Positions 4,449-59,038 of a stretch of DNA of 64,000 nt are shown piece after piece. Below the pieces are notes generated by a model. The model was given only the letters and a program-made list of their open reading frames with translations, did not search any database and was not told the DNA's origin. Source of the stretch: a virus; IMG/VR virus record IMGVR_UViG_3300025687_000024, positions 46,690-110,689 of that record. One strand, written 5' to 3'. Made by a program: the position numbers and the translations under genes. Numbering within the stretch: the stretch's first letter is position 1; the number at the start of each line of letters is the position of its first letter.

Positions 4449-5497
4449 GGGGTACTCCTTCTTCGACTTCGTCGTGTCCAGGCAACGCCTGGTAGGGTGG
4501 CCAGCTGACCGATGGTCTTGGCGTTTGTCACGGCAGCTGAGAGGTGAGTGGTGTCAAGGTCATCCGGGCTCGTTCCTTCGGGGGAACCGTCCGGGTAGAG
4601 GCAGACGTAGGCACGCCCACTTCGCGATAGGCGCTGTGCAATCCTTATCGCAGAACACCGCCGGTTTTTGTCCGGGTCGGGGAAGTAGACGCCCTTTCCA
4701 GGCTCGTGATCCAAGAGGACGTAGTAGGGTCCCCGGAGCCGTGTGATGAGGCGCTCCTGCTGCTTGGTCAGCGTGGAGCCCTGCAGGGCTACGGTGTGCG
4801 GGAAGCCGTGCTCTATGCACCACAGGCATCCCTTGTAGCCCTCGACGATGACCAGCGGCGGCCGCGCTCCCTCATCTGCGAAGAAGCGCGCGGCGTAGAT
4901 GCGGTCGAAGGCGTACAGGTGCTTGCGGTTGGCCCCCGTGTAGCCGGGAACGATATCGTGGAACTCCTTCTCGTAGACGTAGTAGCGAGGCTCTACCCAG
5001 TCGTCGTAGGCGCGTCCGCTGATACCCACGAGCCTCCCGAGATAGTCTCGGATGGGGAAGGTGATGCGGTCGCGGCTCGCGTCATACCCGATGAACATCT
5101 CTTGGAGGATGTCTTCGGAGAAGCCCAGGTCGAGCATCTTGAGGGGGCACTGGTTGTAGGCGCCGAGCACGTACTCGGGCAGGACGTGCCACTCCCACCC
5201 CTGCTTCCCCTCCAGCTTCCGCTGGGCCAGTTCGGGCAGGGGAGGCGGGAGCCGCAGCTCCCCGATCTCCTGCTGTACGCGCTCTCCGGAGAGGCCCAGC
5301 TTGTAGAGGAGGTGGTAGACGGACCCGCCCGCGTGGCAGGAGAAGCAGGTCCAGCTCCCTTCCTTGGTGACGTAGAGCGAGCGCGAGGCTGACTTGGACT
5401 TGTGGAACGGGCACTCTGCACGCAGGTTCCCTTCACCAGAAGGGCGCACGTTGCGCAAGTAGCGCTCTGCCAGCCTCCTGATCTTGTCCGAGAGCAT
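4445..5497 (-). CDS. dnaG: DNA primase (CHC2 zinc finger + TOPRIM)
   Basis: CPFH...CFSC zinc finger, RITFPIRD..GRLVGISGR, IVEGY, LLDHE, PDD. Confidence 0.92.
   Translation of the reverse strand: MLSDKIRRLAERYLRNVRPSGEGNLRAECPFHKSKSASRSLYVTKEGSWTCFSCHAGGSVYHLLYKLGLSGERVQQEIGELRLPPPLPELAQRKLEGKQGWEWHVLPEYVLGAYNQCPLKMLDLGFSEDILQEMFIGYDASRDRITFPIRDYLGRLVGISGRAYDDWVEPRYYVYEKEFHDIVPGYTGANRKHLYAFDRIYAARFFADEGARPPLVIVEGYKGCLWCIEHGFPHTVALQGSTLTKQQERLITRLRGPYYVLLDHEPGKGVYFPDPDKNRRCSAIRIAQRLSRSGRAYVCLYPDGSPEGTSPDDLDTTHLSAAVTNAKTIGQLATLPGVAWTRRSRRRSTP
4643..4656 (-). promoter_or_regulatory. TTC-N4-ATAAG motif inside the primase 3' end, upstream of the SSB gene
   Basis: Minus strand reads GTTCTGCGATAAGG, about 195 nt before the SSB start. 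Confidence 0.4.
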
Positions 5498-13383: not shown

Positions 13384-15315
13384 ATGTCGGGTAGCGGCTT
13401 CGGTCCATCCTCCGGGTACCGCATGAGCGGCAGCAGCAGCTACGCCTTCGGTTCACTGGATGGGAGGAACAACAGCTTCAAGTACCCCTCGGCCTGGTGG
13501 GATGCGGCTCACATGGAGCTGCCCACCACGGTCAAGCACCTCTTCAAGTGGTGCCGCTACCATGCCGTCGCCAACCCGCTCATCAGCTCGACGACCCGCA
13601 AGATGGCGTCGTACCCCATCACGCGGCTCATCATCGAAGACGAGCCCATGGAGGGGTTCGGCAAGAACAAGGAGCGCTGGGAGGACTTGCTCTTCCGGGT
13701 GCTGAACATCCAGCGGTTCATGTTCGAGGGTGGACTGGACTACCACACCTACGGCAACTGCATCGTCAGCCTGCTCTACCCCTTCCACAAGTACCTCGGG
13801 TGCCGCTCTTGCGGCTTCCGCGAGCGCATCAAGCGGCTGAAGTACCAGCAGGAGTGGACGTTCCGCAACTTCAGCTACGAGCTCAACTGCCCGAAGTGCG
13901 GCACCACGGCGCCGGCCGAGGTCAAGGATGAGTGGTACCTCTCTTACAGAGGCATCAAGATCATCCGCTGGGACCCCTCGTCGATCTCCATCGAGTTCAA
14001 CCCCATCACCCAGGCATCCGAGTACGCCTACACGATCCCCGAGCGCATCCGGGCCAAGATCGTGAACAAGCACAAGCCCTACCTCGAGGAGATGCCGCAC
14101 ACCTTCATCCGGGCGGCGCGTCACCGGCGCCCTGTGCAGCTCGTGGCGGGCAACGTCTTCCACTTCCGAGCGCCGACACCCTCCGTCAGCGGGAACGACT
14201 CCGGTTGGGGCTACCCGCCCATCCTGCCTGCGCTCAAGGACAGCTTCTACCTGCAGGTGCTCAAGAAGGCGAACGAAGCCATCATGCTCGAGCACCTGGT
14301 CCCGCTGGACATCCTGTTCCCCAGCACGGCCGACGCCCACGCCAACCCCTACCTGCACGTCAACCTCTCCGACTGGAAGCGGCGCATCGAGACCGAGCTG
14401 GTCAAGTGGCGCATGGACCCCAACCACAAGCCGATCCTGCCGCTCCCCGTGGGGTACCAGCGTGTGGGCGGCACGGGGCGCAGCTTGATGCCTGTGCAGG
14501 AGATCCGAGCCTGGTCCGAGCACATCGTCGTGGGCATGGGGGTTCCTCAGGAGTTCGCCTTCGGGGGCTTGACCTGGTCAGGTTCGAGCGTCTCCATGCG
14601 CATGCTGGAGAACCACTTCCTGATGTACCGGGACATGCTGCACCACTTCATCCAGCACTTCCTGATCCCGAGCGTCTCCCGGTTCATGAACTGGCAGCCA
14701 GTCTCGGCCCGGATGAAGTCCTTCAAGATGGCCGACGACATGCAGATGAAGCAGCTGCTGCTGTCGCTCAACCAGATGAAGAAGCTGTCGGACAAGAGCT
14801 TGTTGGCCGACTTCGACAAGGACTCCCTCGAGGAGCTGCGCCTCATCGAGCAGGAGCAGCGACGCGCGCACGATGTGCAGCGGCAGGACCAGCTGGCCCA
14901 GGCGGAGGCACAGGGCGAGTCCCAGCAGGTCGCCACCAAGTTCCAGATCCGCGCCGAGGAGATGATGCGGAAGCATCAGGAGAGCCTGCAGCGGGAGCAG
15001 ACGCAGGTGATGGGGAGCCAGCCCCCGGCACCCGGGCAGGATCCCGCACTGGCAGCAGGCCAGCCCCAGGCTCCCGGTCGACCGCCTGCCCAGCAGCACG
15101 TCAGCAACGTCAACGTCATCGAGCTGGCCGATGCTTGGGCCAAGCGCCTGCTCGGCCTGGAGCAGCACGAGCAGTCCCGGGTCCTCCAGGACATGGCTCG
15201 CCAGAGCCCCTCCCTGCACAAGCTCATCCTGCAAAAGATGAGCGAGGTGAGGGCGGCGACGCAGGAGCCGCTGCCAGAGCAGAGGCCCCCACGTCGCCAG
15301 AACGCGGTGATCTGA
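13384..15315 (+). CDS. Portal protein with zinc-ribbon insertion
   Basis: Portal-like blocks NPLISS, DYHTYGNC, FHFR..GWGYPPILPAL and IVVGMGVPQEF; CRSC...CPKC insert; Q/P-rich C-terminus. Confidence 0.8.
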   Translation: MSGSGFGPSSGYRMSGSSSYAFGSLDGRNNSFKYPSAWWDAAHMELPTTVKHLFKWCRYHAVANPLISSTTRKMASYPITRLIIEDEPMEGFGKNKERWEDLLFRVLNIQRFMFEGGLDYHTYGNCIVSLLYPFHKYLGCRSCGFRERIKRLKYQQEWTFRNFSYELNCPKCGTTAPAEVKDEWYLSYRGIKIIRWDPSSISIEFNPITQASEYAYTIPERIRAKIVNKHKPYLEEMPHTFIRAARHRRPVQLVAGNVFHFRAPTPSVSGNDSGWGYPPILPALKDSFYLQVLKKANEAIMLEHLVPLDILFPSTADAHANPYLHVNLSDWKRRIETELVKWRMDPNHKPILPLPVGYQRVGGTGRSLMPVQEIRAWSEHIVVGMGVPQEFAFGGLTWSGSSVSMRMLENHFLMYRDMLHHFIQHFLIPSVSRFMNWQPVSARMKSFKMADDMQMKQLLLSLNQMKKLSDKSLLADFDKDSLEELRLIEQEQRRAHDVQRQDQLAQAEAQGESQQVATKFQIRAEEMMRKHQESLQREQTQVMGSQPPAPGQDPALAAGQPQAPGRPPAQQHVSNVNVIELADAWAKRLLGLEQHEQSRVLQDMARQSPSLHKLILQKMSEVRAATQEPLPEQRPPRRQNAVI

Positions 15316-15316
15316 G

Positions 15317-15385
15317 CTACGAGTCGCTGACGCCCAGGAGAGCTCCCCAGGCGATGGCGCAGGTACAGAAGGCGGTGAACAGCAT
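15317..15385 (-). CDS. 22-aa hydrophobic micropeptide MLFTAFCTCAIAWGALLGVSDS
   Basis: ATG overlaps the TGA of the upstream acidic peptide (TGATG); not in the ORF track. Confidence 0.45.
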   Translation of the reverse strand: MLFTAFCTCAIAWGALLGVSDS

Positions 15386-15513
15386 CAGTCGGTGTCCTCT
15401 TCGTCATCGACGTCGAAGTCAGGGTCGTCGTAGTCGTCTTCGTCGTCGTAGGGGTTCAGGCCGAACTCCAGGTCATCCCAGAGCTCATCAGTGTGGGTAC
15501 GGGGACCGTGCAC
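15385..15513 (-). CDS. 42-aa highly acidic micropeptide
   Basis: GGAGG RBS with GTG 15513; MHGPRTHTDELWDDLEFGLNPYDDEDDYDDPDFDVDDEEDTD; ATAAG motif 39 nt upstream; not in the ORF track. Confidence 0.7.
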   Translation of the reverse strand: MHGPRTHTDELWDDLEFGLNPYDDEDDYDDPDFDVDDEEDTD

Positions 15514-15551
15514 GCGGGTTACCTCCAAGTCGTGGTAGTTGGCGTCATAGT

Positions 15552-15565
15552 CCTTATGCGAGAAT
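15552..15565 (-). promoter_or_regulatory. TTC-N4-ATAAG motif (putative phage promoter)
   Basis: Minus strand ATTCTCGCATAAGG. Confidence 0.65.
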
Positions 15566-15590: not shown

Positions 15591-18500
15591 ATGCCGTACC
15601 TGAGCCCTGACGAACAGTTCGCTGACCTCAAGAGCAAGGTCTCGTCCACCCTGATGGAGCTCTTCCCCGTGGAGGGGCGCGGCGGCCGCGTCGTCCTCAA
15701 GAACGTGGAGGTCGACGACAACCTCGACACGCATGACCTGCGCTCGCAGCGGGTAGCTCTGCAGGAGGGGAAGACCTGGGCGGTGCCCGTGTACGGGGAT
15801 GCTGTGCTCGAGCGCGAGGGCCAGGAGATCGACCGCAAGCGCGTCCTGCTGATGCACCTGCCCAAGACCACGGACAGGTTCGGCTACATCGTCAAGGGGC
15901 GGGAGTACCAGGCGCTCACCCAGTTCCGGCAGAAGTCCGGCGTGTACCACCGCACGGCGAGCAACGGCGCGCTGTTGGCCGAGTTCAACCTGGCCAACAG
16001 GGACCAGTTCGCCAACGGGCGTACCTTCAAGGTGCGGTTCGATCCCGAGGAGGCGGTCTACTACCTGCAGCACGGCAACTCCAACATCCCGCTGTACCAC
16101 CTGTTGAAGGGTGCCGGGGTCTCCGACCGGGAACTCGAGCAGCGCTGGGGAGCTGCCATCGTGCAGAAGAATCGAGAGCGGGCCTCGGCCGAGCAGGTCT
16201 ACTCCCGCTTCTACAAGGCGGTGAACAAGAAGCAGCCCGCGGATCCCATGAGGCACGCTGGGCTGTTCCGCGAGCTGCTCGGTAAGACCCGGCTGCGGGC
16301 GGACACGACCAAGAAGACGCTGGGCGCCGAGTTCGAGACTGTCGACAACGAGGTCCTCCTGCGCGCGACCGAGAACCTCCTCGACATGTCGAAGGGGCGC
16401 CGGGAGGATGACCCGAAGACTTCGCTGGAGTTCCAGTCCGTTCACACCATCGACGACTTCATCGACGGCCGCTTGAAGCGTGCGGCGCCGAGCATTCGCC
16501 GGAAGCTGGCCAACGCTCTGGCCAGCGGGCGCACGCGCAACGTACGCCGCGTGGTGAAGGCCGATCCGTTCGACCGGGCAGTGCAGGGCTACTTCACCTC
16601 TGACCTGACGGTGAACCCCGAGCAGACCAACCCCTTGGAGATGCTCGCCGGCCAGCTCAAGACCACCATCATGGGCGAGCAGGGAGGCTACAAGTCGGCG
16701 CACGTGGTGTCCGAGGAGTCCAAGCTCATCAGCCCGTCGCACCTCGGCTTCCTCGACCCCATCCACACCCCGGAGAGCGACAAGACGGGAGTGACCCTCT
16801 CGCTGCCGCTCGGTGTGAAGAAGGTCGGCAACGAGCTCGAGACGCTGCTGGTGGACGCCCGGACGGGGAGGACGCGGCGCATGCAGCCCGCGGACGTGCT
16901 CGACCAGACGGTGGCCTTCCCCGATCAGTACGAGCGGAAGGGGAAGAAGCTGGTAGCCCGTCACGCCAAGGTCAAGGCTACTCGTGGTGGAGAGGTCGTC
17001 ACGGTCCCTGCGAGCGAGGTCGACTACGTACTCCCCAGCCCACGCAGCCTGTTCGGCGTAGCGTCCAACCTGGTGCCCTTCCTGCAGAACAACCAGGGCA
17101 ACCGCGCCATGACCGCGGCCAAGCAGCAAGAACAGGCCGTGCCCCTGGAGCACCGGGAGGCTCCCCTGGTGCAGGTCGAGATGGACCGCGGGGGTACCTT
17201 CGAACAGGCTCTTGGCCTGTACGCCTCTCGCCGGGCCCCCGTAGCCGGGGTCGTCAAGACGGTGAAGAAGGACGCGGTGATCATCAACGACGGGGACAAG
17301 GACCACGAGGTCCAGATCTACCGCAACTTCCCGCTGAACGGGACCTCCCTCTACGACATGGACGTCCAGGTCAAGAAGGGTGACCAGGTCGAGAAGGGGC
17401 AGCTCCTCGCGGACTCCACCTTCACCAAGGACGGGACGCTGGCGCTCGGAACCAACCTGCGGACCGCCTACATCCCCTTCATGGGGTACAACTTCGAGGA
17501 CGGCATCGTCATCTCGGAGGCCGCTGCGAGGAAGCTGGCGTCGCGCCACCTCTACAAGAAGTCCACAGCGCGGGATGCCGACACGATCCTCAGCCGGAAG
17601 ACCTTCCTGGCAGAGTACCCCTACGTCTTCGGCAAGGGGCAGCTGAGCGGTGTGGGGGAGGACGGCATCGTGAAGCCCGGCACCATCCTCAACGAGGGTG
17701 ACCCGCTCATCATGGTGCTGCGGAAGCCCCCCATGACCAAGGCACGCAAGCAGATCCGGGAGTTCCGCCGAGGGCGGCCTGACAAGTACCGGGACCGCTC
17801 CGTCGTGTGGGACAAGCCCTACCAGGGCGAGGTCACCGAGGTCGTGCGCAAGGGCAAGGACGTCACGGTCTACGTCAAGACCCGAGAGCCCGCCCAGATC
17901 GGCGACAAGGTCGTCGGGCGGCACGGCAACAAGGGCGTCATCACGCGCATCATCCCGGTGTCCGAGATGCCCTGGAAGGAGGGAGAGAACGGCGAGAAGG
18001 AGCACGTCGAGATCGCGCTGAACCCCCTGGGCGTGCCCGGGCGCATCAACCTCGGGCAGATCCTGGAGACCGCGGCGGGTAAGGTGGCCGAGAAGCGCGG
18101 GAAGCCCTACGGCGTGCGCAACTTCGAGGCCGAGAAGGACTACCTGGCGATGGTCAAGGAGGACCTGGCCGCCGAGGGTCTGCAGGACCGCGACGAGCTC
18201 ATCGACCCTCGGACGGGGAAGCCCTTCCCCAACCGCATCCTGGCGGGCAACCAGTACATCGTCAAGCTGAAGCACCAGGTGGGCAAGAAGGTCTCTGCCC
18301 GTGCCGGCGGTCCCGGCGCGCCCTACGACATCAACCACGCGCCGGCCGGGGGCGCTCCCCACGGGGGGCAGGCTCTGGGGGAGCTCGGGATGTACTCCAT
18401 GCTGGCGCACGGAGCCCGGGAGAACCTCCACGAGATGTTCGCCTACAAGTCGTCCCGCAACCACGAGCTGTGGGATGCCCTGCGAGAAGGGACGCCGCTA

Positions 18501-21500
18501 CCGCCCCCGAAGGTGCCCTTCGCCTACGAGAAGTTCCTCTCCTACCTGAACGCCATGCGCGTCGACGCACGGAAGCACGGGAACAGCCTGACCTTGGTCC
18601 CGTTCACCGAGGAGCAGGTGAAGTCGATGTCGGCCGGGGAGCTCAAGGATCCCGGGCTGGTGGTGCGCGGCAAGGACTTGCGTCCGCTCAAGGGCGGGCT
18701 GTTCGACGAGGACATCACGGGCGGCATGCTCGGGGACAAGTGGGCACACTTCAAGCTCGCCGAGCCCATGCCGAACCCGCTCTTCGAGGACGCGGTCAAG
18801 AAGCTCCTCAACATCACCCGCAAGCGCTACGCGGACATCGTCGCGGGACGGGTGGAGGTCAAGGGCAAGCGGGGCGGGGAGGCCATCAAGGCCCTGCTGG
18901 AGGACGTCAACGTCGCGGAGCAGCGGGAAGCCATCACTGCGAAGCTCGCGACTGCGAAGGGAGCCACGCGGAGCAAGCTGCACAAGCAGCTGCGCATCCT
19001 CAAGGCCCTGGAGGCCAACAACCTCGACCCCACGGTCTACATGATGGAGTCCGTGCCCGTCGTCCCGCCGATCATGCGCCCCGTAACGGTCAAGGACGAC
19101 GGCTCCCTCTCGTCCAACGACTTGAACTACCTCTACAAGGGCATCGCGGCCTCCAACGACGTGCTCCGGAGCAACAAGCGGGCAGGCCTGCCCGCAGCCC
19201 ACATGGAGACGGTGCGCTCCGAGCTGTACGATGGCGTCAAGGCCCTGATGGGTGTCGGCGCCGCGGCTGCGCCGGGCCCGCGCGACTACCAGGGAGTGCT
19301 CAAGATCATCTCGGGGGATCAGCCCAAGGAGGGCTACTTCCAGAAGCGCGTGATGAAGCGCCGCCAGGACTTCTCGGCCCGGTCCATCATCATCCCGGAG
19401 CCGGGCATGGACCTCGACGAGCTCGGGGTGCCCGAGAAGGTGGCCTGGTCGCTGTACCAGCCCTTCATCGAGCGCGACCTCGCCCGGGCGGGCTGGAAGA
19501 TGCTCGACGCCATCAACGAGGTCAAGGCCCGCGGTCCCGCGGCCGAGAAGGCGTTGGAGCGTGCGGTGCAGGAGCGCCCCATTCTACTGAAGCGCGACCC
19601 CGCTCTGCACATGTTCAACGTGATGGCCTTCAAGCCCAGGCTGGTGAAGGGCAGCGCCATCGAAATCCACCCCCTCGTCGTCTCGGGCTACAACGCTGAC
19701 TTCGACGGCGACGCCATGAGCGTGTACCTGCCCCTCACCTCGAAGGCGGTGAAGGAAGCGCATGGCATGTACCCGTCCAAGAACTTGTTCAGCTCGAGCA
19801 CGGGTGCCGTGATGCACACGCCCGGGCACGAAGCGTTGCTCGGCCTCTACCTGGCGTCGAAGCCCGGGAAGCGCACGCGGCACACGTTCAAGACGGGAGA
19901 AGACGCGCGGGCGGCCTGGCGTCGGGGACGTATCGACCGGACGGACATCATCCACGTGGCTGGGCACGAGACTACGGTGGGCCGGCTGGACATCGAGCGG
20001 CACCTGCCGCCGGAGCTGCGGGAGACCGGGAAGAAGCCTGTCTCCCAGATGCGGGTCTACGACAAGGGGACCACCAAGAAGGTGCTGACGGCCATCGCCA
20101 AGAAGAACCCTGACCACTACGGCAAGGTGGCCAACGCCTTCAAGGACATCGGCAACGAGCACACCTTCGACGTAGGGTTCTCCATCGGCCTCGACGACTT
20201 CGAGGTCATCAACCGGAAGGAGCGGGACTCCATGATGCAGGCGGCCGAGGCCCAGGCGGACCGCATCCGGCAGGGTCCCGGGAGCAAGCAGCGGAAGGAC
20301 GAGCGGGTCGTCAAGATCTTCCAGGACCTCGATGACTCCCTCGACCGCCTCAACACCGAGCACCTGGCCCAGAACCCCACCAACATCTCCCGCATGGTGG
20401 AGTCCGGGGCGCGCGGCAAGCCCTCGCAGCTCAAGCAGATCATCAGCAGTCCCGTGTTGGTGATGGACGCGAAGAACCGGGTGGTGCCGAGCCTCATCCC
20501 GCGGTCGTACTCCGAGGGCATGGACGTGGCGTCCTACTGGACCACGCTGCACGGTGCGCGGAAGGGCACCATCCAGAAGGTGCAGGGCGTGAAGGACCCC
20601 GGGTACATCTCCAAGCAGGTGATGAACTCCACCATGAACCAGCTCGTCACGGAGCGAGACTGCGGGACGACCGAGGGCATCTTCATGTCCGTCGATGACT
20701 CGGACATCCTGGACAGGTACACGGTGCAGGGGACGCTCATCACGCCGAAGGTGGTGGCTGATGCGCGGAAGCGCCGACAGCGCTCCCTCAAGGTGAGGTC
20801 CCCCCTGCGGTGCAAGTCGTCGCACGGCATCTGCCAGAAGTGCATGGGGCTGAGCGTGAACGGACACCACCACGATGTGGGGACCAACGTGGGGGTGCTC
20901 GCTGGGCAGGCCATCGGAGAGCCCGCGACGCAGCTCTCCCTCAACGTCTTCCACACGGGAGGCTTGGCCAAGGGGCGCGGCTCGAAGAGCGTCAACGCCT
21001 TCCACCGGCTCACCGAAATCTTGCGGCTCCCCAAGAACCTGCCGGACGCAGCGCCGCTGGCCCTGGAGTCGGGGACGGTCACCAAGGTCGAGCGCGCGCC
21101 GCAGGGCGGCGAGTACGTGACCGTCGGCCGGACGCGCCACTACCTCCCGGCGGCTCAGGCCAGGGCGGTGAAGCGCGGGCAGCCTGTGCGCAAGGGCGCT
21201 CCGCTGACGGATGGCGTGGTGGACCCGCGCAACCTGCTGTCCCTGCGGGGCCTCGAGGCTGTGCAAGACCACCTCACCGACGAGCTCGCCGACGTCATGG
21301 GTACGGTGGCTCCGGTGAAGCGACGCAACCTCGAGGTCGTCGTCAAGTCGCTCACGAACGTCACGCACATCGACGATGCGGGAGACCACCCGGAGTGGGT
21401 TCCGGGCGATGCGCAGCCCTACAGTGCCGTGCAGGCGTACAACCGGAAGCCCGGCACGAAGCCGGTCAAGCATACGCCCTACCTCAAGGGAGTCAACGTC

Positions 21501-21701
21501 CTGCCCCACGAGATGCAGGAAGACTGGATGGCGCGCCTGAACTACACCGACCTCTCGCGCACGCTGACCGAGGCGGCCCGCGAGGGCTGGCGGTCCAACA
21601 TCCACGGCTTCCATCCGGTACCCGGGGCGGCCTACGCTGCCGAGTTCGGGCAGAAGCAGAAGGCCGTCAAGCCCGGTGAGCCCTGGAGAGGTGAGTATTG
21701 A
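15591..21701 (+). CDS. rpoBC: Phage two-barrel RNA polymerase, beta and beta' fused in one 2036-aa chain
   Basis: Beta motifs HLGFLDPIHTPES, LVPFLQNNQGNRA, GYNFEDGIVISE, GDKVVGRHGNKG, LNPLGVPGRINLGQ and GGQALGE; then beta' motifs VPVVPPIMRP, RDPALH, YNADFDGDAM, SGARG, RSPLRC..GICQKC and GEPATQLSLNVFHTGG. No stop codon between them. Confidence 0.97.
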   Translation: MPYLSPDEQFADLKSKVSSTLMELFPVEGRGGRVVLKNVEVDDNLDTHDLRSQRVALQEGKTWAVPVYGDAVLEREGQEIDRKRVLLMHLPKTTDRFGYIVKGREYQALTQFRQKSGVYHRTASNGALLAEFNLANRDQFANGRTFKVRFDPEEAVYYLQHGNSNIPLYHLLKGAGVSDRELEQRWGAAIVQKNRERASAEQVYSRFYKAVNKKQPADPMRHAGLFRELLGKTRLRADTTKKTLGAEFETVDNEVLLRATENLLDMSKGRREDDPKTSLEFQSVHTIDDFIDGRLKRAAPSIRRKLANALASGRTRNVRRVVKADPFDRAVQGYFTSDLTVNPEQTNPLEMLAGQLKTTIMGEQGGYKSAHVVSEESKLISPSHLGFLDPIHTPESDKTGVTLSLPLGVKKVGNELETLLVDARTGRTRRMQPADVLDQTVAFPDQYERKGKKLVARHAKVKATRGGEVVTVPASEVDYVLPSPRSLFGVASNLVPFLQNNQGNRAMTAAKQQEQAVPLEHREAPLVQVEMDRGGTFEQALGLYASRRAPVAGVVKTVKKDAVIINDGDKDHEVQIYRNFPLNGTSLYDMDVQVKKGDQVEKGQLLADSTFTKDGTLALGTNLRTAYIPFMGYNFEDGIVISEAAARKLASRHLYKKSTARDADTILSRKTFLAEYPYVFGKGQLSGVGEDGIVKPGTILNEGDPLIMVLRKPPMTKARKQIREFRRGRPDKYRDRSVVWDKPYQGEVTEVVRKGKDVTVYVKTREPAQIGDKVVGRHGNKGVITRIIPVSEMPWKEGENGEKEHVEIALNPLGVPGRINLGQILETAAGKVAEKRGKPYGVRNFEAEKDYLAMVKEDLAAEGLQDRDELIDPRTGKPFPNRILAGNQYIVKLKHQVGKKVSARAGGPGAPYDINHAPAGGAPHGGQALGELGMYSMLAHGARENLHEMFAYKSSRNHELWDALREGTPLPPPKVPFAYEKFLSYLNAMRVDARKHGNSLTLVPFTEEQVKSMSAGELKDPGLVVRGKDLRPLKGGLFDEDITGGMLGDKWAHFKLAEPMPNPLFEDAVKKLLNITRKRYADIVAGRVEVKGKRGGEAIKALLEDVNVAEQREAITAKLATAKGATRSKLHKQLRILKALEANNLDPTVYMMESVPVVPPIMRPVTVKDDGSLSSNDLNYLYKGIAASNDVLRSNKRAGLPAAHMETVRSELYDGVKALMGVGAAAAPGPRDYQGVLKIISGDQPKEGYFQKRVMKRRQDFSARSIIIPEPGMDLDELGVPEKVAWSLYQPFIERDLARAGWKMLDAINEVKARGPAAEKALERAVQERPILLKRDPALHMFNVMAFKPRLVKGSAIEIHPLVVSGYNADFDGDAMSVYLPLTSKAVKEAHGMYPSKNLFSSSTGAVMHTPGHEALLGLYLASKPGKRTRHTFKTGEDARAAWRRGRIDRTDIIHVAGHETTVGRLDIERHLPPELRETGKKPVSQMRVYDKGTTKKVLTAIAKKNPDHYGKVANAFKDIGNEHTFDVGFSIGLDDFEVINRKERDSMMQAAEAQADRIRQGPGSKQRKDERVVKIFQDLDDSLDRLNTEHLAQNPTNISRMVESGARGKPSQLKQIISSPVLVMDAKNRVVPSLIPRSYSEGMDVASYWTTLHGARKGTIQKVQGVKDPGYISKQVMNSTMNQLVTERDCGTTEGIFMSVDDSDILDRYTVQGTLITPKVVADARKRRQRSLKVRSPLRCKSSHGICQKCMGLSVNGHHHDVGTNVGVLAGQAIGEPATQLSLNVFHTGGLAKGRGSKSVNAFHRLTEILRLPKNLPDAAPLALESGTVTKVERAPQGGEYVTVGRTRHYLPAAQARAVKRGQPVRKGAPLTDGVVDPRNLLSLRGLEAVQDHLTDELADVMGTVAPVKRRNLEVVVKSLTNVTHIDDAGDHPEWVPGDAQPYSAVQAYNRKPGTKPVKHTPYLKGVNVLPHEMQEDWMARLNYTDLSRTLTEAAREGWRSNIHGFHPVPGAAYAAEFGQKQKAVKPGEPWRGEY

Positions 21702-23272
21702 GTGCCCCCAAGCCCGGGTTCCCGCCTGCCTGGACCGCCTACGGCGGTGTGAGGGTACTGGCGGGCACCATCATCTCGGTCAACAAGGTGAAGTGGACCT
21801 GCACGGTCAACTGCGGGAAGGGAGAGCACTACGAGGACGTCCCCGTGATGCCCGGGTTCGTGGGGGCCGAAGGGCAGGGCGAGTTCAAGATGCCGGAGAC
21901 CAACTCTCCGGTCTGGGTCTGCAAGCCTTCGCAGGAGGGGAAGGTGTTCGTGCTGGGCGGCGCCGCGCTCCCTACCCAGATGGACGAAGGGGACGCATAC
22001 GAGGACCCCACGGACTACCGCATGAACCGTCCGGTGCTCGGCGAGGGGGACCAGGGGATGATGGGCCCTGGCGGGAGTCCGCACGTCATCCTGCGCAAGG
22101 GCGGCATGCTCGAGCTCGGTGCCGACCAGGCATGCCGCTCCTGGTACTTCCCGCTCAAGGGACTGCTGCAGCACTTCTGTCAGCGGTACGAGCTCTACGG
22201 TGCGGCCGGGTCCTGGGAGTATGGCGCGCGCCTCGAGGACCAGTCACACGGGACGGCGCGGACTCCGGTCGAGTTCAACCTGCAGCTCAAGGAGTTCGCC
22301 CAGGACGACCCCATCATCCAGCTGGGCCTAGGGCGCATCGCTGACGAGGATGACCAGCGACTGTTCCACGGCACTACGGGCGACATCGTCGCCCGGCTCA
22401 TCATCAACAACCGCTACCGCTTCTGGGTGGACAAGGCCGGCAACGTGCAGTCCTACGTGCACGGAGGCGTGGTGCGGTCCCACAACGGCCCCGTCGTGGA
22501 GTACTACCACTCTACGCTGATGCGCGAGGTCAAGGAGCTGTTCCGCCAGCGTCTCGGGAAGCGCGCCGTGGAGGTTAGCGGGAACGATGCCCTCGAGGTC
22601 ACGGGAGACCGCACAGTCCGCGTGGGCGGAAACGTCTCCGAGGAGGTCACCGGCACGGTAGCCCGTCAGCTCGGCGGGGTCGCCGACGAGGTCCGCGGGA
22701 GTGTGGAGCGGAAGGTGCAGGGAAGCCTCTCCGACGAAGTGGGCGGGTCCGTCTCCCAGTCGGTAGGGGGCACGCACGAGATGTCGGTGCAGGGGGGAGC
22801 ATCCGAGCTGGTGGGAGGCAAGAAGGTCACCAAGGTCCTCAACAGCCAGGCCGACGGCAACGGCTACGAGATCTACGTCTACTCGGGCAAGCTCGAGATC
22901 CACGATGCGCTGGGCAACGTGGAGTTGTCGTCGGGCGGAGGGTCCGACCCTGCGGCAGCTCTTGCGCGAGTCACGATCACGCCTGCTGGAGCCATCCAAC
23001 TGAGCAGCTCCGGAGGCCTGGCTACCGTCGAGGTCAACAGCAGCGGCATCCAGATCAGCACCGCGGGCGGGGTCATCGAGCTCGACCAGGCCGGCTTGGT
23101 GCTTCTCGGAGGGGCAGTGCCCCCGCGGGGCGCTGTGGTCACCACCCTGACGCACCCGGTGGACCTCGTGACAGGCACGCCGATCCTCGGGAGTGCCACT
23201 GTGGCGGCCGGCGGGATCGCGTCCCCCGCCGCGGTACCGGCTACCAGCTTCGCCTCGGCCTTCCTGGTATGA
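21698..23272 (+). CDS. Gp5/VgrG-like baseplate spike protein
   Basis: N-terminal OB-fold-like region (GTIISVN...CTV...PETNSPVWV), repeated V-x-G beta-helix-like segment, C-terminal HPVDLVTGTP. Confidence 0.7.
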   Translation: MSAPKPGFPPAWTAYGGVRVLAGTIISVNKVKWTCTVNCGKGEHYEDVPVMPGFVGAEGQGEFKMPETNSPVWVCKPSQEGKVFVLGGAALPTQMDEGDAYEDPTDYRMNRPVLGEGDQGMMGPGGSPHVILRKGGMLELGADQACRSWYFPLKGLLQHFCQRYELYGAAGSWEYGARLEDQSHGTARTPVEFNLQLKEFAQDDPIIQLGLGRIADEDDQRLFHGTTGDIVARLIINNRYRFWVDKAGNVQSYVHGGVVRSHNGPVVEYYHSTLMREVKELFRQRLGKRAVEVSGNDALEVTGDRTVRVGGNVSEEVTGTVARQLGGVADEVRGSVERKVQGSLSDEVGGSVSQSVGGTHEMSVQGGASELVGGKKVTKVLNSQADGNGYEIYVYSGKLEIHDALGNVELSSGGGSDPAAALARVTITPAGAIQLSSSGGLATVEVNSSGIQISTAGGVIELDQAGLVLLGGAVPPRGAVVTTLTHPVDLVTGTPILGSATVAAGGIASPAAVPATSFASAFLV

Positions 23273-53430: not shown

Positions 53431-53444
53431 GCTTATCCCCGAAA
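53431..53444 (-). promoter_or_regulatory. TTC-N4-ATAAG motif
   Basis: Minus strand TTTCGGGGATAAGC. Confidence 0.55.
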
Positions 53445-57418: not shown

Positions 57419-57432
57419 CCTTATGCGCGAAA
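57419..57432 (-). promoter_or_regulatory. TTC-N4-ATAAG motif
   Basis: Minus strand TTTCGCGCATAAGG; GC hairpin 57449-57474 just upstream. Confidence 0.7.
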
Positions 57433-58462: not shown

Positions 58463-58476
58463 CCTTATGCGTGAAA
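58463..58476 (-). promoter_or_regulatory. TTC-N4-ATAAG motif
   Basis: Minus strand TTTCACGCATAAGG; GC hairpin 58489-58518 just upstream. Confidence 0.7.
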
Positions 58477-59024: not shown

Positions 59025-59038
59025 CCTTATGAGCGAAA
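59025..59038 (-). promoter_or_regulatory. TTC-N4-ATAAG motif
   Basis: Minus strand TTTCGCTCATAAGG; hairpin 59054-59084 just upstream. Confidence 0.7.

What the first reader, a model, noticed from the sequence alone, without database searches (positions are those of the whole stretch)
15591..21701. Single-chain, streamlined beta-beta' RNA polymerase embedded in the virion gene module
Seen: one ORF holds the bacterial beta motifs and then the beta' motifs in order, with the junction near 18560-18600 and the catalytic NADFDGD at 19692-19712. At 2036 aa it is about 700 aa shorter than E. coli beta plus beta' (1342+1407). No alpha, omega or sigma gene is recognisable in this window. The gene sits between portal and spike and overlaps the spike start. 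Known: phiKZ-like RNAPs are split into several chains, and Helicobacter and Wolbachia have cellular beta-beta' fusions. Phage-encoded cellular-like RNAPs have been reported from metagenomes, so the lineage may not be new, though its biology is poorly known. Inference: a late-expressed, possibly virion-packaged enzyme that may work without alpha or sigma.
Basis: partly seen in the sequence, partly recalled or inferred. Interest (0 to 1): 0.85.

Follow-up and report, generated by a model that had tools for sequence, protein, structure and literature searches.

The report
Single-chain phage RNA polymerase with sigma
A large uncultured phage encodes both big subunits of a bacterial-type RNA polymerase as one 2036-residue protein among its particle genes, has its own sigma factor elsewhere in the genome, and belongs to a very large, so far undescribed family of phages that probably transcribe their genes without the host enzyme.

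Summary
Window 15591-21701 (+) is one intact 2036-aa ORF with a complete beta module (aa 1-994), a 5-residue linker, then a complete beta' module. NADFDGD lies at 19692-19712, the portal gene lies upstream, and the stop overlaps the start of a gp5-like hub/spike gene.

It is not a bacterial capture. Identity to bacterial rpoBC is 26-28%, it scores far below NCBIfam cut-offs, and it sits in its own clade.

It is one of a very large family. At least 120 protein clusters and at least 587 IMG/VR contigs carry it. All 80 loci inspected have one open frame and the same portal-RNAP-hub-TerL order.

The cultured relatives are Salmonella phage Arash and Vibrio phages D69/D148/D181, which have beta' split in two. 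In Arash these proteins and a sigma factor were abundant in the particle proteome.

A sigma70-family gene lies outside the window, and an ortholog was found in all 10 related records searched. The sigma-docking elements of the core (clamp helices, flap-tip helix) are kept. No alpha or omega gene was found.

"Streamlining" mostly means that proteobacterial insertions are absent and the beta' zinc-binding domain is lost.

This scan found the same design before on other DNA. I found no paper that describes it.

The parts
13384..15315 (+). Portal protein gene, conserved upstream neighbour of the RNAP
   Evidence: 29-31% identity to the Arash gp204 portal and its Vibrio D69 homolog (E 5e-78 / 4e-84). 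Weak hit to phrog_16240 portal. Found upstream of the RNAP in nearly all of the 80 related loci that extend far enough.
15553..15564 (-). TTC-N4-ATAAG motif, a candidate phage promoter pointing leftward from the portal/RNAP gap
   Evidence: 6 copies in the window, all on the minus strand, against 0.13 expected. This copy holds the same position just before the RNAP start in relatives L010, L011, L014, L061 and L071. Function not tested.
15591..21701 (+). Fused beta-beta' RNA polymerase gene (2036 aa, P0001)
   Evidence: GC by codon position is 0.65/0.41/0.92, like neighbouring phage genes.
15591..18572 (+). Beta module (aa 1-994): lobes, fork loops, flap, and the beta double-psi barrel with GDKVVGRHGNKG (17901-17936)
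   Evidence: A family HMM aligns it to Salmonella RpoB 50-231, 421-932 and 1048-1338; SI1 and SI2 are absent. AF2 model pLDDT 88.6, pTM 0.83. Foldseek top hits are whole bacterial beta chains, TMq 0.77-0.81.
17736..17771 (+). Flap-tip helix (aa 716-727), the docking site of sigma region 4 in bacterial RNAP
   Evidence: Aligned to the RpoB flap-tip helix region, TPEEKLLRAIFG in the flap stretch of the alignment. Helix 717-725 in the model.
18573..18587 (+). Five-residue linker KHGNS joining the beta C-terminus to the beta' N-terminus
   Evidence: The beta alignment ends at MRVDAR. The next segment, LTLVPFTEEQ, resembles beta' residues from about 20 onward by eye; the HMM alignment leaves beta' 1-162 unaligned and the local alignment covers only beta' 159-266.
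18588..21698 (+). Beta' module (aa 1000-2036)
   Evidence: HMM aligned to RpoC 163-949 and 1135-1346; SI3 is absent. AF2 pLDDT 90.1, pTM 0.86. Top Foldseek hits are whole bacterial beta' chains, TMq up to 0.86.
18714..18743 (+). Site of the deleted beta' zinc-binding domain (ITGGMLGDKW in place of the C70/C72/C85/C88 ribbon)
   Evidence: Reading the junction sequence against the RpoC N-terminus printed (by eye; not covered by the computed alignments). No Cys occurs in this stretch. The family consensus reads TGGxxGxKWSH.
19113..19259 (+). Clamp helices (coiled coil, aa 1175-1223), the docking site of sigma region 2
   Evidence: Aligned to RpoC 262-309. The model has a helical hairpin at 1177-1197 and 1202-1220.
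19692..19712 (+). Catalytic Mg-binding motif NADFDGD (aa 1368-1374)
   Evidence: D1370, F1371, D1372, G1373 and D1374 are invariant in 20 and in 75 family members.
20535..20963 (+). Bridge helix, second zinc site (C1691, C1741, C1748, C1751) and start of the trigger loop
   Evidence: Aligned to RpoC 765-960. The four Cys are invariant in A1.
21698..23272 (+). gp5-like baseplate hub/spike gene, translationally coupled to the RNAP (TTG start overlaps the TGA stop)
   Evidence: Pfam Gp5_C and phrog_430. Sequence at the overlap. Homolog found downstream of the RNAP in most related loci that extend that far.

Best explanation
The gene encodes the catalytic core of a phage-owned, bacterial-type RNA polymerase made as one chain: beta, a 5-residue linker, then beta'. 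Shown: every catalytic and nucleic-acid-handling element is present and conserved, both halves fold like complete bacterial subunits, and the protein is an old phage lineage rather than a bacterial capture. Inferred: the core binds the phage's own sigma70-family factor through the retained clamp helices and flap-tip helix, and this holoenzyme transcribes phage promoters independently of host RNA polymerase. Covalent fusion probably replaces the alpha-dimer scaffold, since no alpha or omega gene is encoded. The gene sits in the late particle-gene block, coupled to the hub/spike gene, it is the only RNAP in complete relatives, and its Arash homologs are abundant in particles. The most likely life cycle is therefore that the enzyme is made late, packed into the virion with sigma, and delivered with the DNA to start early transcription. 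It then probably carries out the rest of the programme as well.
For: Enzyme identity: Pfam and NCBIfam beta and beta' domains in order. NADFDGD, GDK..RHGNKG, bridge helix, trigger loop and the second zinc site are invariant across the family. AF2 models have pLDDT 88.6 and 90.1 and match whole bacterial beta and beta' chains at TMq 0.79-0.86.

Own lineage: identity to bacterial rpoBC is at most 28% among the hits of one pattern-based scan of species-representative genomes. The protein is about equally distant from solved RNAPs of Firmicutes, Deinococcota, Actinobacteriota and Proteobacteria by sequence, and of Cyanobacteria by fold. The family clade has 100% SH-aLRT support apart from bacteria. 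Codon-position GC matches the phage.

Sigma: a 241-aa sigma70-family protein lies in the same genome. One ortholog was found in each of 10 related records, including 5 complete or near-complete ones. The sigma-docking elements are kept.

Single RNAP: exactly one copy in 5 complete or near-complete relatives of 191-199 kb.

No alpha or omega.

Virion link: the order portal-RNAP-hub-TerL is conserved in the 80 loci down to 37% identity and in a second, 28%-identical lineage (L107). The RNAP stop overlaps the hub start. Arash Gp206 gave 3516 spectra, the most of any protein, Gp216 gave 1210 and sigma Gp10 gave 467 at 100% coverage in purified particles (PMC10585845).
Against: No experiment exists on any fused member.

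The Arash particle proteome listed 116 proteins, including ribonucleotide reductases. Its authors themselves allow carry-over of abundant cytoplasmic proteins.

The RNAP lacks the FxxELxK[IV]A N-terminal tag shared by nine other proteins of this phage, which other readers proposed as a capsid-targeting signal.

Host alpha could still be recruited; the alpha-contact surfaces were not analysed.

No promoter has been tied to this enzyme. My k-mer search of upstream regions found nothing, and the one strong motif is unassigned.

The window's genome record is only about 65% complete.
Confidence: 0.6

Rival explanations
1. It is a non-virion RNAP. Host RNA polymerase transcribes the early genes, including this gene and the sigma gene. 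The phage holoenzyme then takes over middle and late transcription, as the phiKZ non-virion enzyme does. Its place among particle genes is historical, and the Arash mass-spectrometry signal is carry-over.
For: The Arash particle list contains obvious cytoplasmic enzymes. The RNAP lacks the shared N-terminal tag of candidate capsid cargo. A 275-nt gap separates it from the portal gene, so it is not simply part of the portal transcript by translational coupling.
Against: The position between portal and hub is conserved over at least two deep lineages, and the gene is coupled to the hub gene. The Arash homolog gave more spectra than any other protein in the particle preparation, ahead of the major capsid protein. 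An enzyme made only with late genes has little to transcribe unless it is carried into the next cell.
Confidence: 0.25
2. The fused chain is not self-sufficient. It assembles on the host alpha dimer, and perhaps omega, to give a chimeric enzyme, so the phage replaces only beta, beta' and sigma.
For: The folds are very close to bacterial beta and beta'. The cellular beta-beta' fusions of Helicobacter and Wolbachia still use alpha (established knowledge). No alpha surrogate was identified.
Against: The family shares only 21-28% identity with bacterial subunits, yet the isolates infect Salmonella and Vibrio and MAG bins hint at cyanobacterial and deltaproteobacterial hosts, so one conserved alpha interface is hard to maintain. 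The phiKZ and AR9 multisubunit RNAPs work without alpha or omega (PMC7598289 and PMC8287921 appeared in the search lists but were not opened; this point rests on my own knowledge of that literature). A particle-delivered enzyme could not bring host alpha along unless alpha were packaged too.
Confidence: 0.12
3. It is a recently captured or contaminating bacterial rpoB-rpoC, or an assembly artefact that joins two genes.
For: None beyond the general similarity to bacterial RNAP.
Against: Identity to bacterial loci is 26-28%. NCBIfam scores are 498 against a cut-off of 963 (rpoC), 337 against 801 (rpoB) and 521 against 5372 (Helicobacter-type fusion). It forms a separate clade. The same uninterrupted frame occurs in 80 of 80 independent contigs. 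It lies between phage portal and hub genes.
Confidence: 0.01

Closest known systems
Salmonella phage Arash Gp206 + Gp216 with sigma Gp10 (OQ632216; PMC10585845), and Vibrio phages D69/D148/D181
   Same: Homologous RNAP: 33.5% identity to Arash over query aa 12-1461 and 29.6% to the Vibrio phages over 97% of the length. They fall in the same clade. The portal gene lies just upstream. The sigma is orthologous. They are myoviruses of about 180-187 kb.
   Different: In the isolates the enzyme is two chains: beta fused to the N-terminal part of beta' (about 1525 aa), plus the C-terminal part of beta' (about 606 aa). The cut is near P0001 residue 1461. In Arash, nine other genes lie between the two pieces. 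Here, and in the 80 metagenomic loci, everything is one chain. The Arash paper annotates the subunits but does not analyse the enzyme or the family.
phiKZ/AR9-type jumbo-phage multisubunit RNAPs (virion and non-virion sets)
   Same: Phage-encoded homologs of beta and beta', with no alpha or omega, and one set carried in the virion (established knowledge of phiKZ/AR9 from the literature, e.g. PMC7598289 and PMC7824862; only the subunit-split and no-sigma points were read here).
   Different: Those enzymes are split into four or five polypeptides, come as two sets per genome, have no sigma factor (PMC7824862), and are far more divergent. Here there is one chain, one set and a sigma partner.
mReC, the multisubunit-RNAP-encoding Caudovirales of Weinheimer and Aylward 2020 (PMC7481178)
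   Same: Metagenomic tailed phages with cellular-like beta and beta' that branch deeply beside Bacteria.
   Different: The mReC rows I read (one part of their supplement) have separate beta (about 1000-1400 aa) and beta' (about 900-1200 aa) genes, and some contigs carry two sets. None is a chain of about 2050 aa, and the paper mentions fusion only for crAssphage. Whether the present family branches inside mReC was not tested.
Cellular beta-beta' fusions (rpoBC of Helicobacter and Wolbachia)
   Same: Same order and same kind of short join between the beta C-terminus and the beta' N-terminus.
   Different: Those are ordinary bacterial orthologs of about 2840-2890 aa that use alpha and omega. P0001 scores 521 bits against a cut-off of 5372 for that NCBIfam model and lies outside Bacteria in the tree.
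Virion RNAPs made as one giant chain: crAss-like gp66, N4 vRNAP, P23-45 tape-measure-fused RNAP (PMC10770324)
   Same: A single large polypeptide encoded among particle genes and delivered to the cell to start early transcription. This is the working model here.
   Different: Those enzymes are either unrelated single-subunit polymerases (N4) or two-barrel enzymes so divergent that beta/beta' HMMs miss them (crAss), and none is known to use a sigma factor. P0001 is a full bacterial-type core.

Membership tests
Bacterial-type multisubunit RNAP core (beta + beta' homologs) | Beta' double-psi barrel with the NADFDGD Mg site | tested here: met
   aa 1368-1374; the D-F-D-G-D residues are invariant in 75 members.
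Bacterial-type multisubunit RNAP core (beta + beta' homologs) | Beta double-psi barrel with conserved lysines (GDK...RHGNKG), flap, and fork loop region | tested here: met
   aa 771-782. D772, K773, R777 and K781 are invariant. The alignment to RpoB covers these regions.
Bacterial-type multisubunit RNAP core (beta + beta' homologs) | Bridge helix, trigger loop, clamp helices and second zinc site | tested here: met
Bacterial-type multisubunit RNAP core (beta + beta' homologs) | Overall fold of complete beta and beta' | tested here: met
   Foldseek TMq 0.77-0.81 (beta) and 0.80-0.86 (beta') to solved bacterial chains.
Bacterial-type multisubunit RNAP core (beta + beta' homologs) | Beta' N-terminal zinc-binding domain (four Cys) | tested here: not met
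   Replaced by GGMLGDK (reading of the junction sequence against the RpoC N-terminus; no computed alignment covers it); the family consensus lacks Cys here.
Bacterial rpoB / rpoC orthologs (NCBIfam equivalogs) | Score above the curated cut-off | tested here: not met
   rpoC_TIGR 498 against 963; rpoB 337 against 801; PRK00405 368 against 896.
Cellular rpoBC fusion (Helicobacter/Wolbachia type) | Score above the cut-off of PRK09603 / PRK14844, and placement inside Bacteria | tested here: not met
   521 against 5372 and 457 against 4632. The family is separated from the bacterial clade.
Arash-like phage RNAP-sigma system | RNAP homologous and in the same clade | tested here: met
   33.5% identity. 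Fused and split forms together make a clade with 100% SH-aLRT support.
Arash-like phage RNAP-sigma system | Portal gene immediately upstream | tested here: met
Arash-like phage RNAP-sigma system | Orthologous sigma70-family gene in the genome | tested here: met
   28% identity, E 7e-20, to Arash gp10.
Arash-like phage RNAP-sigma system | Two-chain layout (beta plus beta' N-terminal part, and beta' C-terminal part) | tested here: not met
   One chain here and in 80 of 80 metagenomic loci.
Arash-like phage RNAP-sigma system | RNAP and sigma present in particles | not testable with these tools
   Known only for Arash, by mass spectrometry.
phiKZ/AR9-type jumbo-phage RNAPs | Beta and beta' each split into several polypeptides; two sets per genome; no sigma | tested here: not met
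   Single chain. One copy in complete relatives. Sigma present.
mReC (Weinheimer and Aylward 2020) | Membership of their deep-branching RNAP clade | not tested
The rows I read in one part of their table show separate subunit genes only.

The most novel reading that the evidence does not exclude
A very large clade of roughly 170-200 kb myoviruses, seen in hundreds of metagenomic contigs and infecting several bacterial phyla, carries the smallest known cellular-type transcription machine. It is one beta-beta' chain plus one sigma, with no alpha or omega, and it is packed into the particle. That would make these phages independent of host RNA polymerase from the first minute. It would be the first sigma-dependent virion RNAP and a natural single-chain minimal core for structural and synthetic-biology use.
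Probability: 0.4. Interest if true: 0.8.

Novelty: new variant of a known kind. Interest (0 to 1): 0.62.

Why it matters
Phage-encoded multisubunit RNAPs are known mainly from phiKZ-like jumbo phages, where they are fragmented, sigma-less and highly divergent. Here the opposite design appears: both catalytic subunits in one chain, close enough to bacterial RNAP to be modelled with confidence, paired with a conventional sigma, and apparently without the alpha scaffold that all cellular enzymes need.

If this is confirmed, it bears on three questions. The first is how little is needed for a cellular-type RNAP to assemble and find promoters. The second is how a 225-kDa enzyme travels in a particle. 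The third is how old the phage and bacterial RNAP lineages are relative to each other.

The family is abundant in environmental data, with at least 587 IMG/VR contigs. It has cultured relatives in Salmonella and Vibrio, so the questions can be tested directly.

Tried and rejected
1. Searching IMG/VR with the single protein found nothing. An alignment query was needed.

2. A k-mer enrichment search for promoter motifs in 34 upstream regions of my own gene calls gave no clear motif. The sigma70 consensus and terminator scan around the gene was at background.

3. I checked whether the Vibrio D69 gap between the two RNAP pieces is a group I intron. It showed no Rfam match, so the beta' split looks real. 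The extra break in D181 is a group I intron.

4. I asked whether the 'moraphage' lineage (PMC12619734) is this family. It is not: those phages have no RNAP.

5. I asked whether mReC already covers the fused form. The rows I read in one part of their supplement have separate genes.

6. I looked for the shared FxxELxK[IV]A tag on the RNAP. It is absent. The N-terminal QFADLKSKV is probably the conserved beta N-terminal helix (helix 6-23 in the model).

7. No tRNA genes in the window to hint at the host.

8. The bacterial sample in the tree is narrow. It has Proteobacteria, Saccharibacteria, Coriobacteriia and one unclassified MAG, and two 'Bacteroidaceae/Bulleidia' rows are evidently Collinsella-like bins. 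I therefore lean also on the PDB comparison across phyla.


Full report
**1. The observation**

The window is the right-hand 64 kb of a 110,689-bp IMG/VR virus record. The record is linear, about 65% complete and 66% GC. ORF 15591-21701 (+) is intact, 2036 aa, and starts at an ATG preceded by AGGAG.

Pfam places Rpb2 domains 3, 6 and 7 in aa 344-955 and Rpb1 domains 1, 2, 4 and 5 in aa 1052-1814. The beta part ends at MRVDAR (aa 989-994). A five-residue linker, KHGNS, follows. Beta' begins at LTLVPF (aa 1000), which by eye corresponds to about residue 20 of E. coli beta'; the computed alignments do not reach this stretch. The junction is therefore nt 18555-18590. NADFDGD is at nt 19692-19712.

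**2. Surroundings**

The upstream gene (13384-15315) is homologous to the annotated portal of Salmonella phage Arash (E 5e-78). The downstream gene (21698-23272) carries Gp5 C-terminal repeats and matches a baseplate-hub/tail-lysozyme PHROG. Its TTG start overlaps the RNAP stop. Further right lie the large terminase, the major head protein and the tail sheath. This is a myovirus, and the RNAP sits in its particle-gene block on the same strand. Codon-position GC of the RNAP gene matches its neighbours.

**3. What the protein is**

I built a profile from 20 family members and aligned it to Salmonella RpoB and RpoC.
- It covers beta 50-231, 421-932 and 1048-1338, and beta' 163-949 and 1135-1346.
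- Missing parts are the proteobacterial insertions SI1, SI2 and SI3, the beta' zinc-binding domain (the four-Cys ribbon is replaced by GGMLGDK) and the acidic C-tail.
- Kept parts are the beta barrel motif GDK..RHGNKG, the flap with its tip helix (aa 716-727), the clamp helices (aa 1175-1223), the bridge helix, the trigger loop and the second zinc site with four invariant Cys.

AlphaFold2 models built on 75-sequence alignments are confident. The beta module has pLDDT 88.6 and pTM 0.83; the beta' module has 90.1 and 0.86. They superpose on whole bacterial beta chains (TMq 0.77-0.81) and beta' chains (TMq 0.80-0.86).

So the enzyme is a complete bacterial-type core. "Streamlined" means a beta slightly shorter than the shortest solved bacterial beta chains (1042-1119 aa) and a beta' about 120-160 aa shorter than the smallest solved ones (1161 and 1199 aa). 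Residues that bind rifampicin in E. coli are replaced, so resistance is predicted but not shown.

**4. Not a bacterial capture**

- Bacterial rpoB-rpoC loci match at only 26-28%.
- NCBIfam equivalog scores are half or less of their cut-offs. The Helicobacter-type fusion model scores 521 against 5372.
- Solved RNAPs from Firmicutes, Thermus, Actinobacteria and Proteobacteria by sequence (E 1e-110 to 1e-89), and cyanobacterial ones by fold, are about equally distant (20-25% identity in the fold alignments).
- A maximum-likelihood tree (42 rows, 2022 columns, LG+G4) separates the phage family from the bacterial rows with 100% SH-aLRT support.

The bacterial sample in that tree is narrow, which is why I cite the other three lines as well.

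**5. A very large family**

The protein search returned at least 120 clusters at 42-63% identity. Their lengths are strikingly constant at 2031-2076 aa. Longer members carry intein or LAGLIDADG domains.

All 80 loci kept have one uninterrupted frame of about 2020-2240 codons. Two are longer, presumably because of inteins, and three are cut by contig ends. The gene order is portal, RNAP, hub, a conserved 718-aa protein, then large terminase, all on one strand. Contigs reach 170-199 kb, and two complete relatives have terminal repeats.

**6. Cultured relatives**

Salmonella phage Arash (181 kb) and Vibrio phages D69/D148/D181 (187 kb) are the nearest isolates. In them the enzyme is two proteins: beta fused to the N-terminal part of beta' (about 1525 aa), and the C-terminal part of beta' (about 606 aa). 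The portal gene again lies just upstream.

The cut lies at about P0001 residue 1461. This is where the cyanobacterial rpoC1 and rpoC2 models end and begin on P0001. In the tree the split pair falls in the basal polytomy of the family, so the direction of change is open.

The Arash paper reports Gp206 as the protein with the most spectra in the particle proteome (3516). Gp216 had 1210 and the sigma factor Gp10 had 467 with full coverage. The authors caution that abundant enzymes may be carry-over (PMC10585845).

**7. Sigma, alpha and omega**

Outside the window, at G000:C1:13219-13944, lies a 241-aa sigma70-family protein with regions 2, 3 and 4. One ortholog (28-39% identity) was found in each of five complete or near-complete relatives, in two large partial ones, in a binned contig, in Arash (gp10) and in Vibrio D69. 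The same five relatives have exactly one RNAP.

No alpha N-terminal domain, alpha dimerisation domain or omega was found, while every one of the 14 control genomes gave a hit over the family's cut-off in each of the three searches. "Without alpha" remains plausible.

**8. How it most likely works**

The core plus the phage sigma forms a holoenzyme that reads phage promoters. The covalent join, and possibly other phage proteins, replace the alpha scaffold. The gene is expressed with the particle genes, and the enzyme is probably packed and delivered with the DNA.

Of this, only the enzyme's identity is shown. The sigma partnership rests on co-occurrence and retained docking elements. Packaging rests on gene position and on one proteome of a homolog.

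The main rival is a non-virion enzyme turned on by host RNAP. I give the full model 0.6, the non-virion rival 0.25, dependence on host alpha 0.12, and capture or artefact 0.01.

**9. Literature**

- The mReC paper (PMC7481178) describes deep-branching phage beta and beta'. The rows I read in one part of its tables list separate genes only, and it mentions fusion only for crAssphage.
- The jumbo-phage overviews do not cover this family.
- 'Moraphages' lack an RNAP.
- Four further full-text searches found no description of a fused bacterial-type phage RNAP.
- An earlier agent of this scan reached the same reading on another genome. I re-derived each point here.

**10. Verdict**

This is a new variant of a known kind: phage-encoded multisubunit-type RNAPs, and specifically the Arash-like RNAP-sigma system, in a single-chain form that is the rule in nature. 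Interest is 0.62.

Noticed in passing
window 4644-4655, 15553-15564, 53432-53443, 57420-57431, 58464-58475, 59026-59037 (all minus strand): The motif TTC-N4-ATAAG occurs 6 times against 0.13 expected, always on the minus strand. The copy in the portal/RNAP gap keeps its position in five relatives at 39-62% RNAP identity. It is a candidate phage promoter, possibly for the phage holoenzyme.
   Followed up: partly
window 15385-15528 (-) and 15317-15385 (-): Small antisense ORFs lie in the 275-nt portal/RNAP gap, just downstream of the motif above. One is a 47-aa, very acidic peptide; the other is a 22-aa hydrophobic one. Arash and Vibrio D69 instead have a small plus-strand ORF of about 95 aa at this place.
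   Followed up: no
L107:4818-13918 (15-kb contig binned in a 'Bacillus sp.' MAG): A second lineage with the same layout. A portal gene (phrog_16240, E 7e-22) is followed directly by a 2317-aa fused beta-beta' that is only 28% identical to P0001 and branches outside both the family and the bacterial rows.
   Followed up: partly
L191:2000-2911 (Vibrio phage D181): The beta part of the D181 RNAP gene is interrupted by a group I intron (RF00028, 100.7 bits, E 5e-26) carrying a homing endonuclease. Its sister D69 lacks it. Other family members carry inteins. Mobile elements target this gene repeatedly.
   Followed up: yes
P0001 about aa 1457-1488 (window about 19960-20055): The beta' split of Arash and the Vibrio phages falls where the cyanobacterial rpoC1 model ends (aa 1457) and the rpoC2 model begins (aa 1488). 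This suggests a recurrent permissive break point in beta'.
   Followed up: partly
G000:C1:9317, 12058, 21621, 23303; window 13008, 42852, 43450, 44770, 52216(-): Nine otherwise unrelated proteins carry [FY]xx[EAHDQ]LxK[ITYLV]A, seven of them within the first 30 residues (15 hits in all six frames). Two lie just upstream of the sigma gene. The RNAP does not carry it. It may be a prohead-protease or capsid-targeting signal.
   Followed up: partly
G000:C1:6372-8147 (outside the window): An SNF2/ResIII-family helicase (591 aa) lies about 5 kb upstream of the sigma gene. SNF2-type helicases accompany phage RNAPs in phiKZ-like phages (PMC7824862).
   Followed up: no
window 21684-21698 (P0001 aa 2032-2036): The extreme C-terminus WRGEY ends in a Tyr that is invariant in the 20-member alignment (consensus WxGxY). 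It may be a docking or packaging motif.
   Followed up: no
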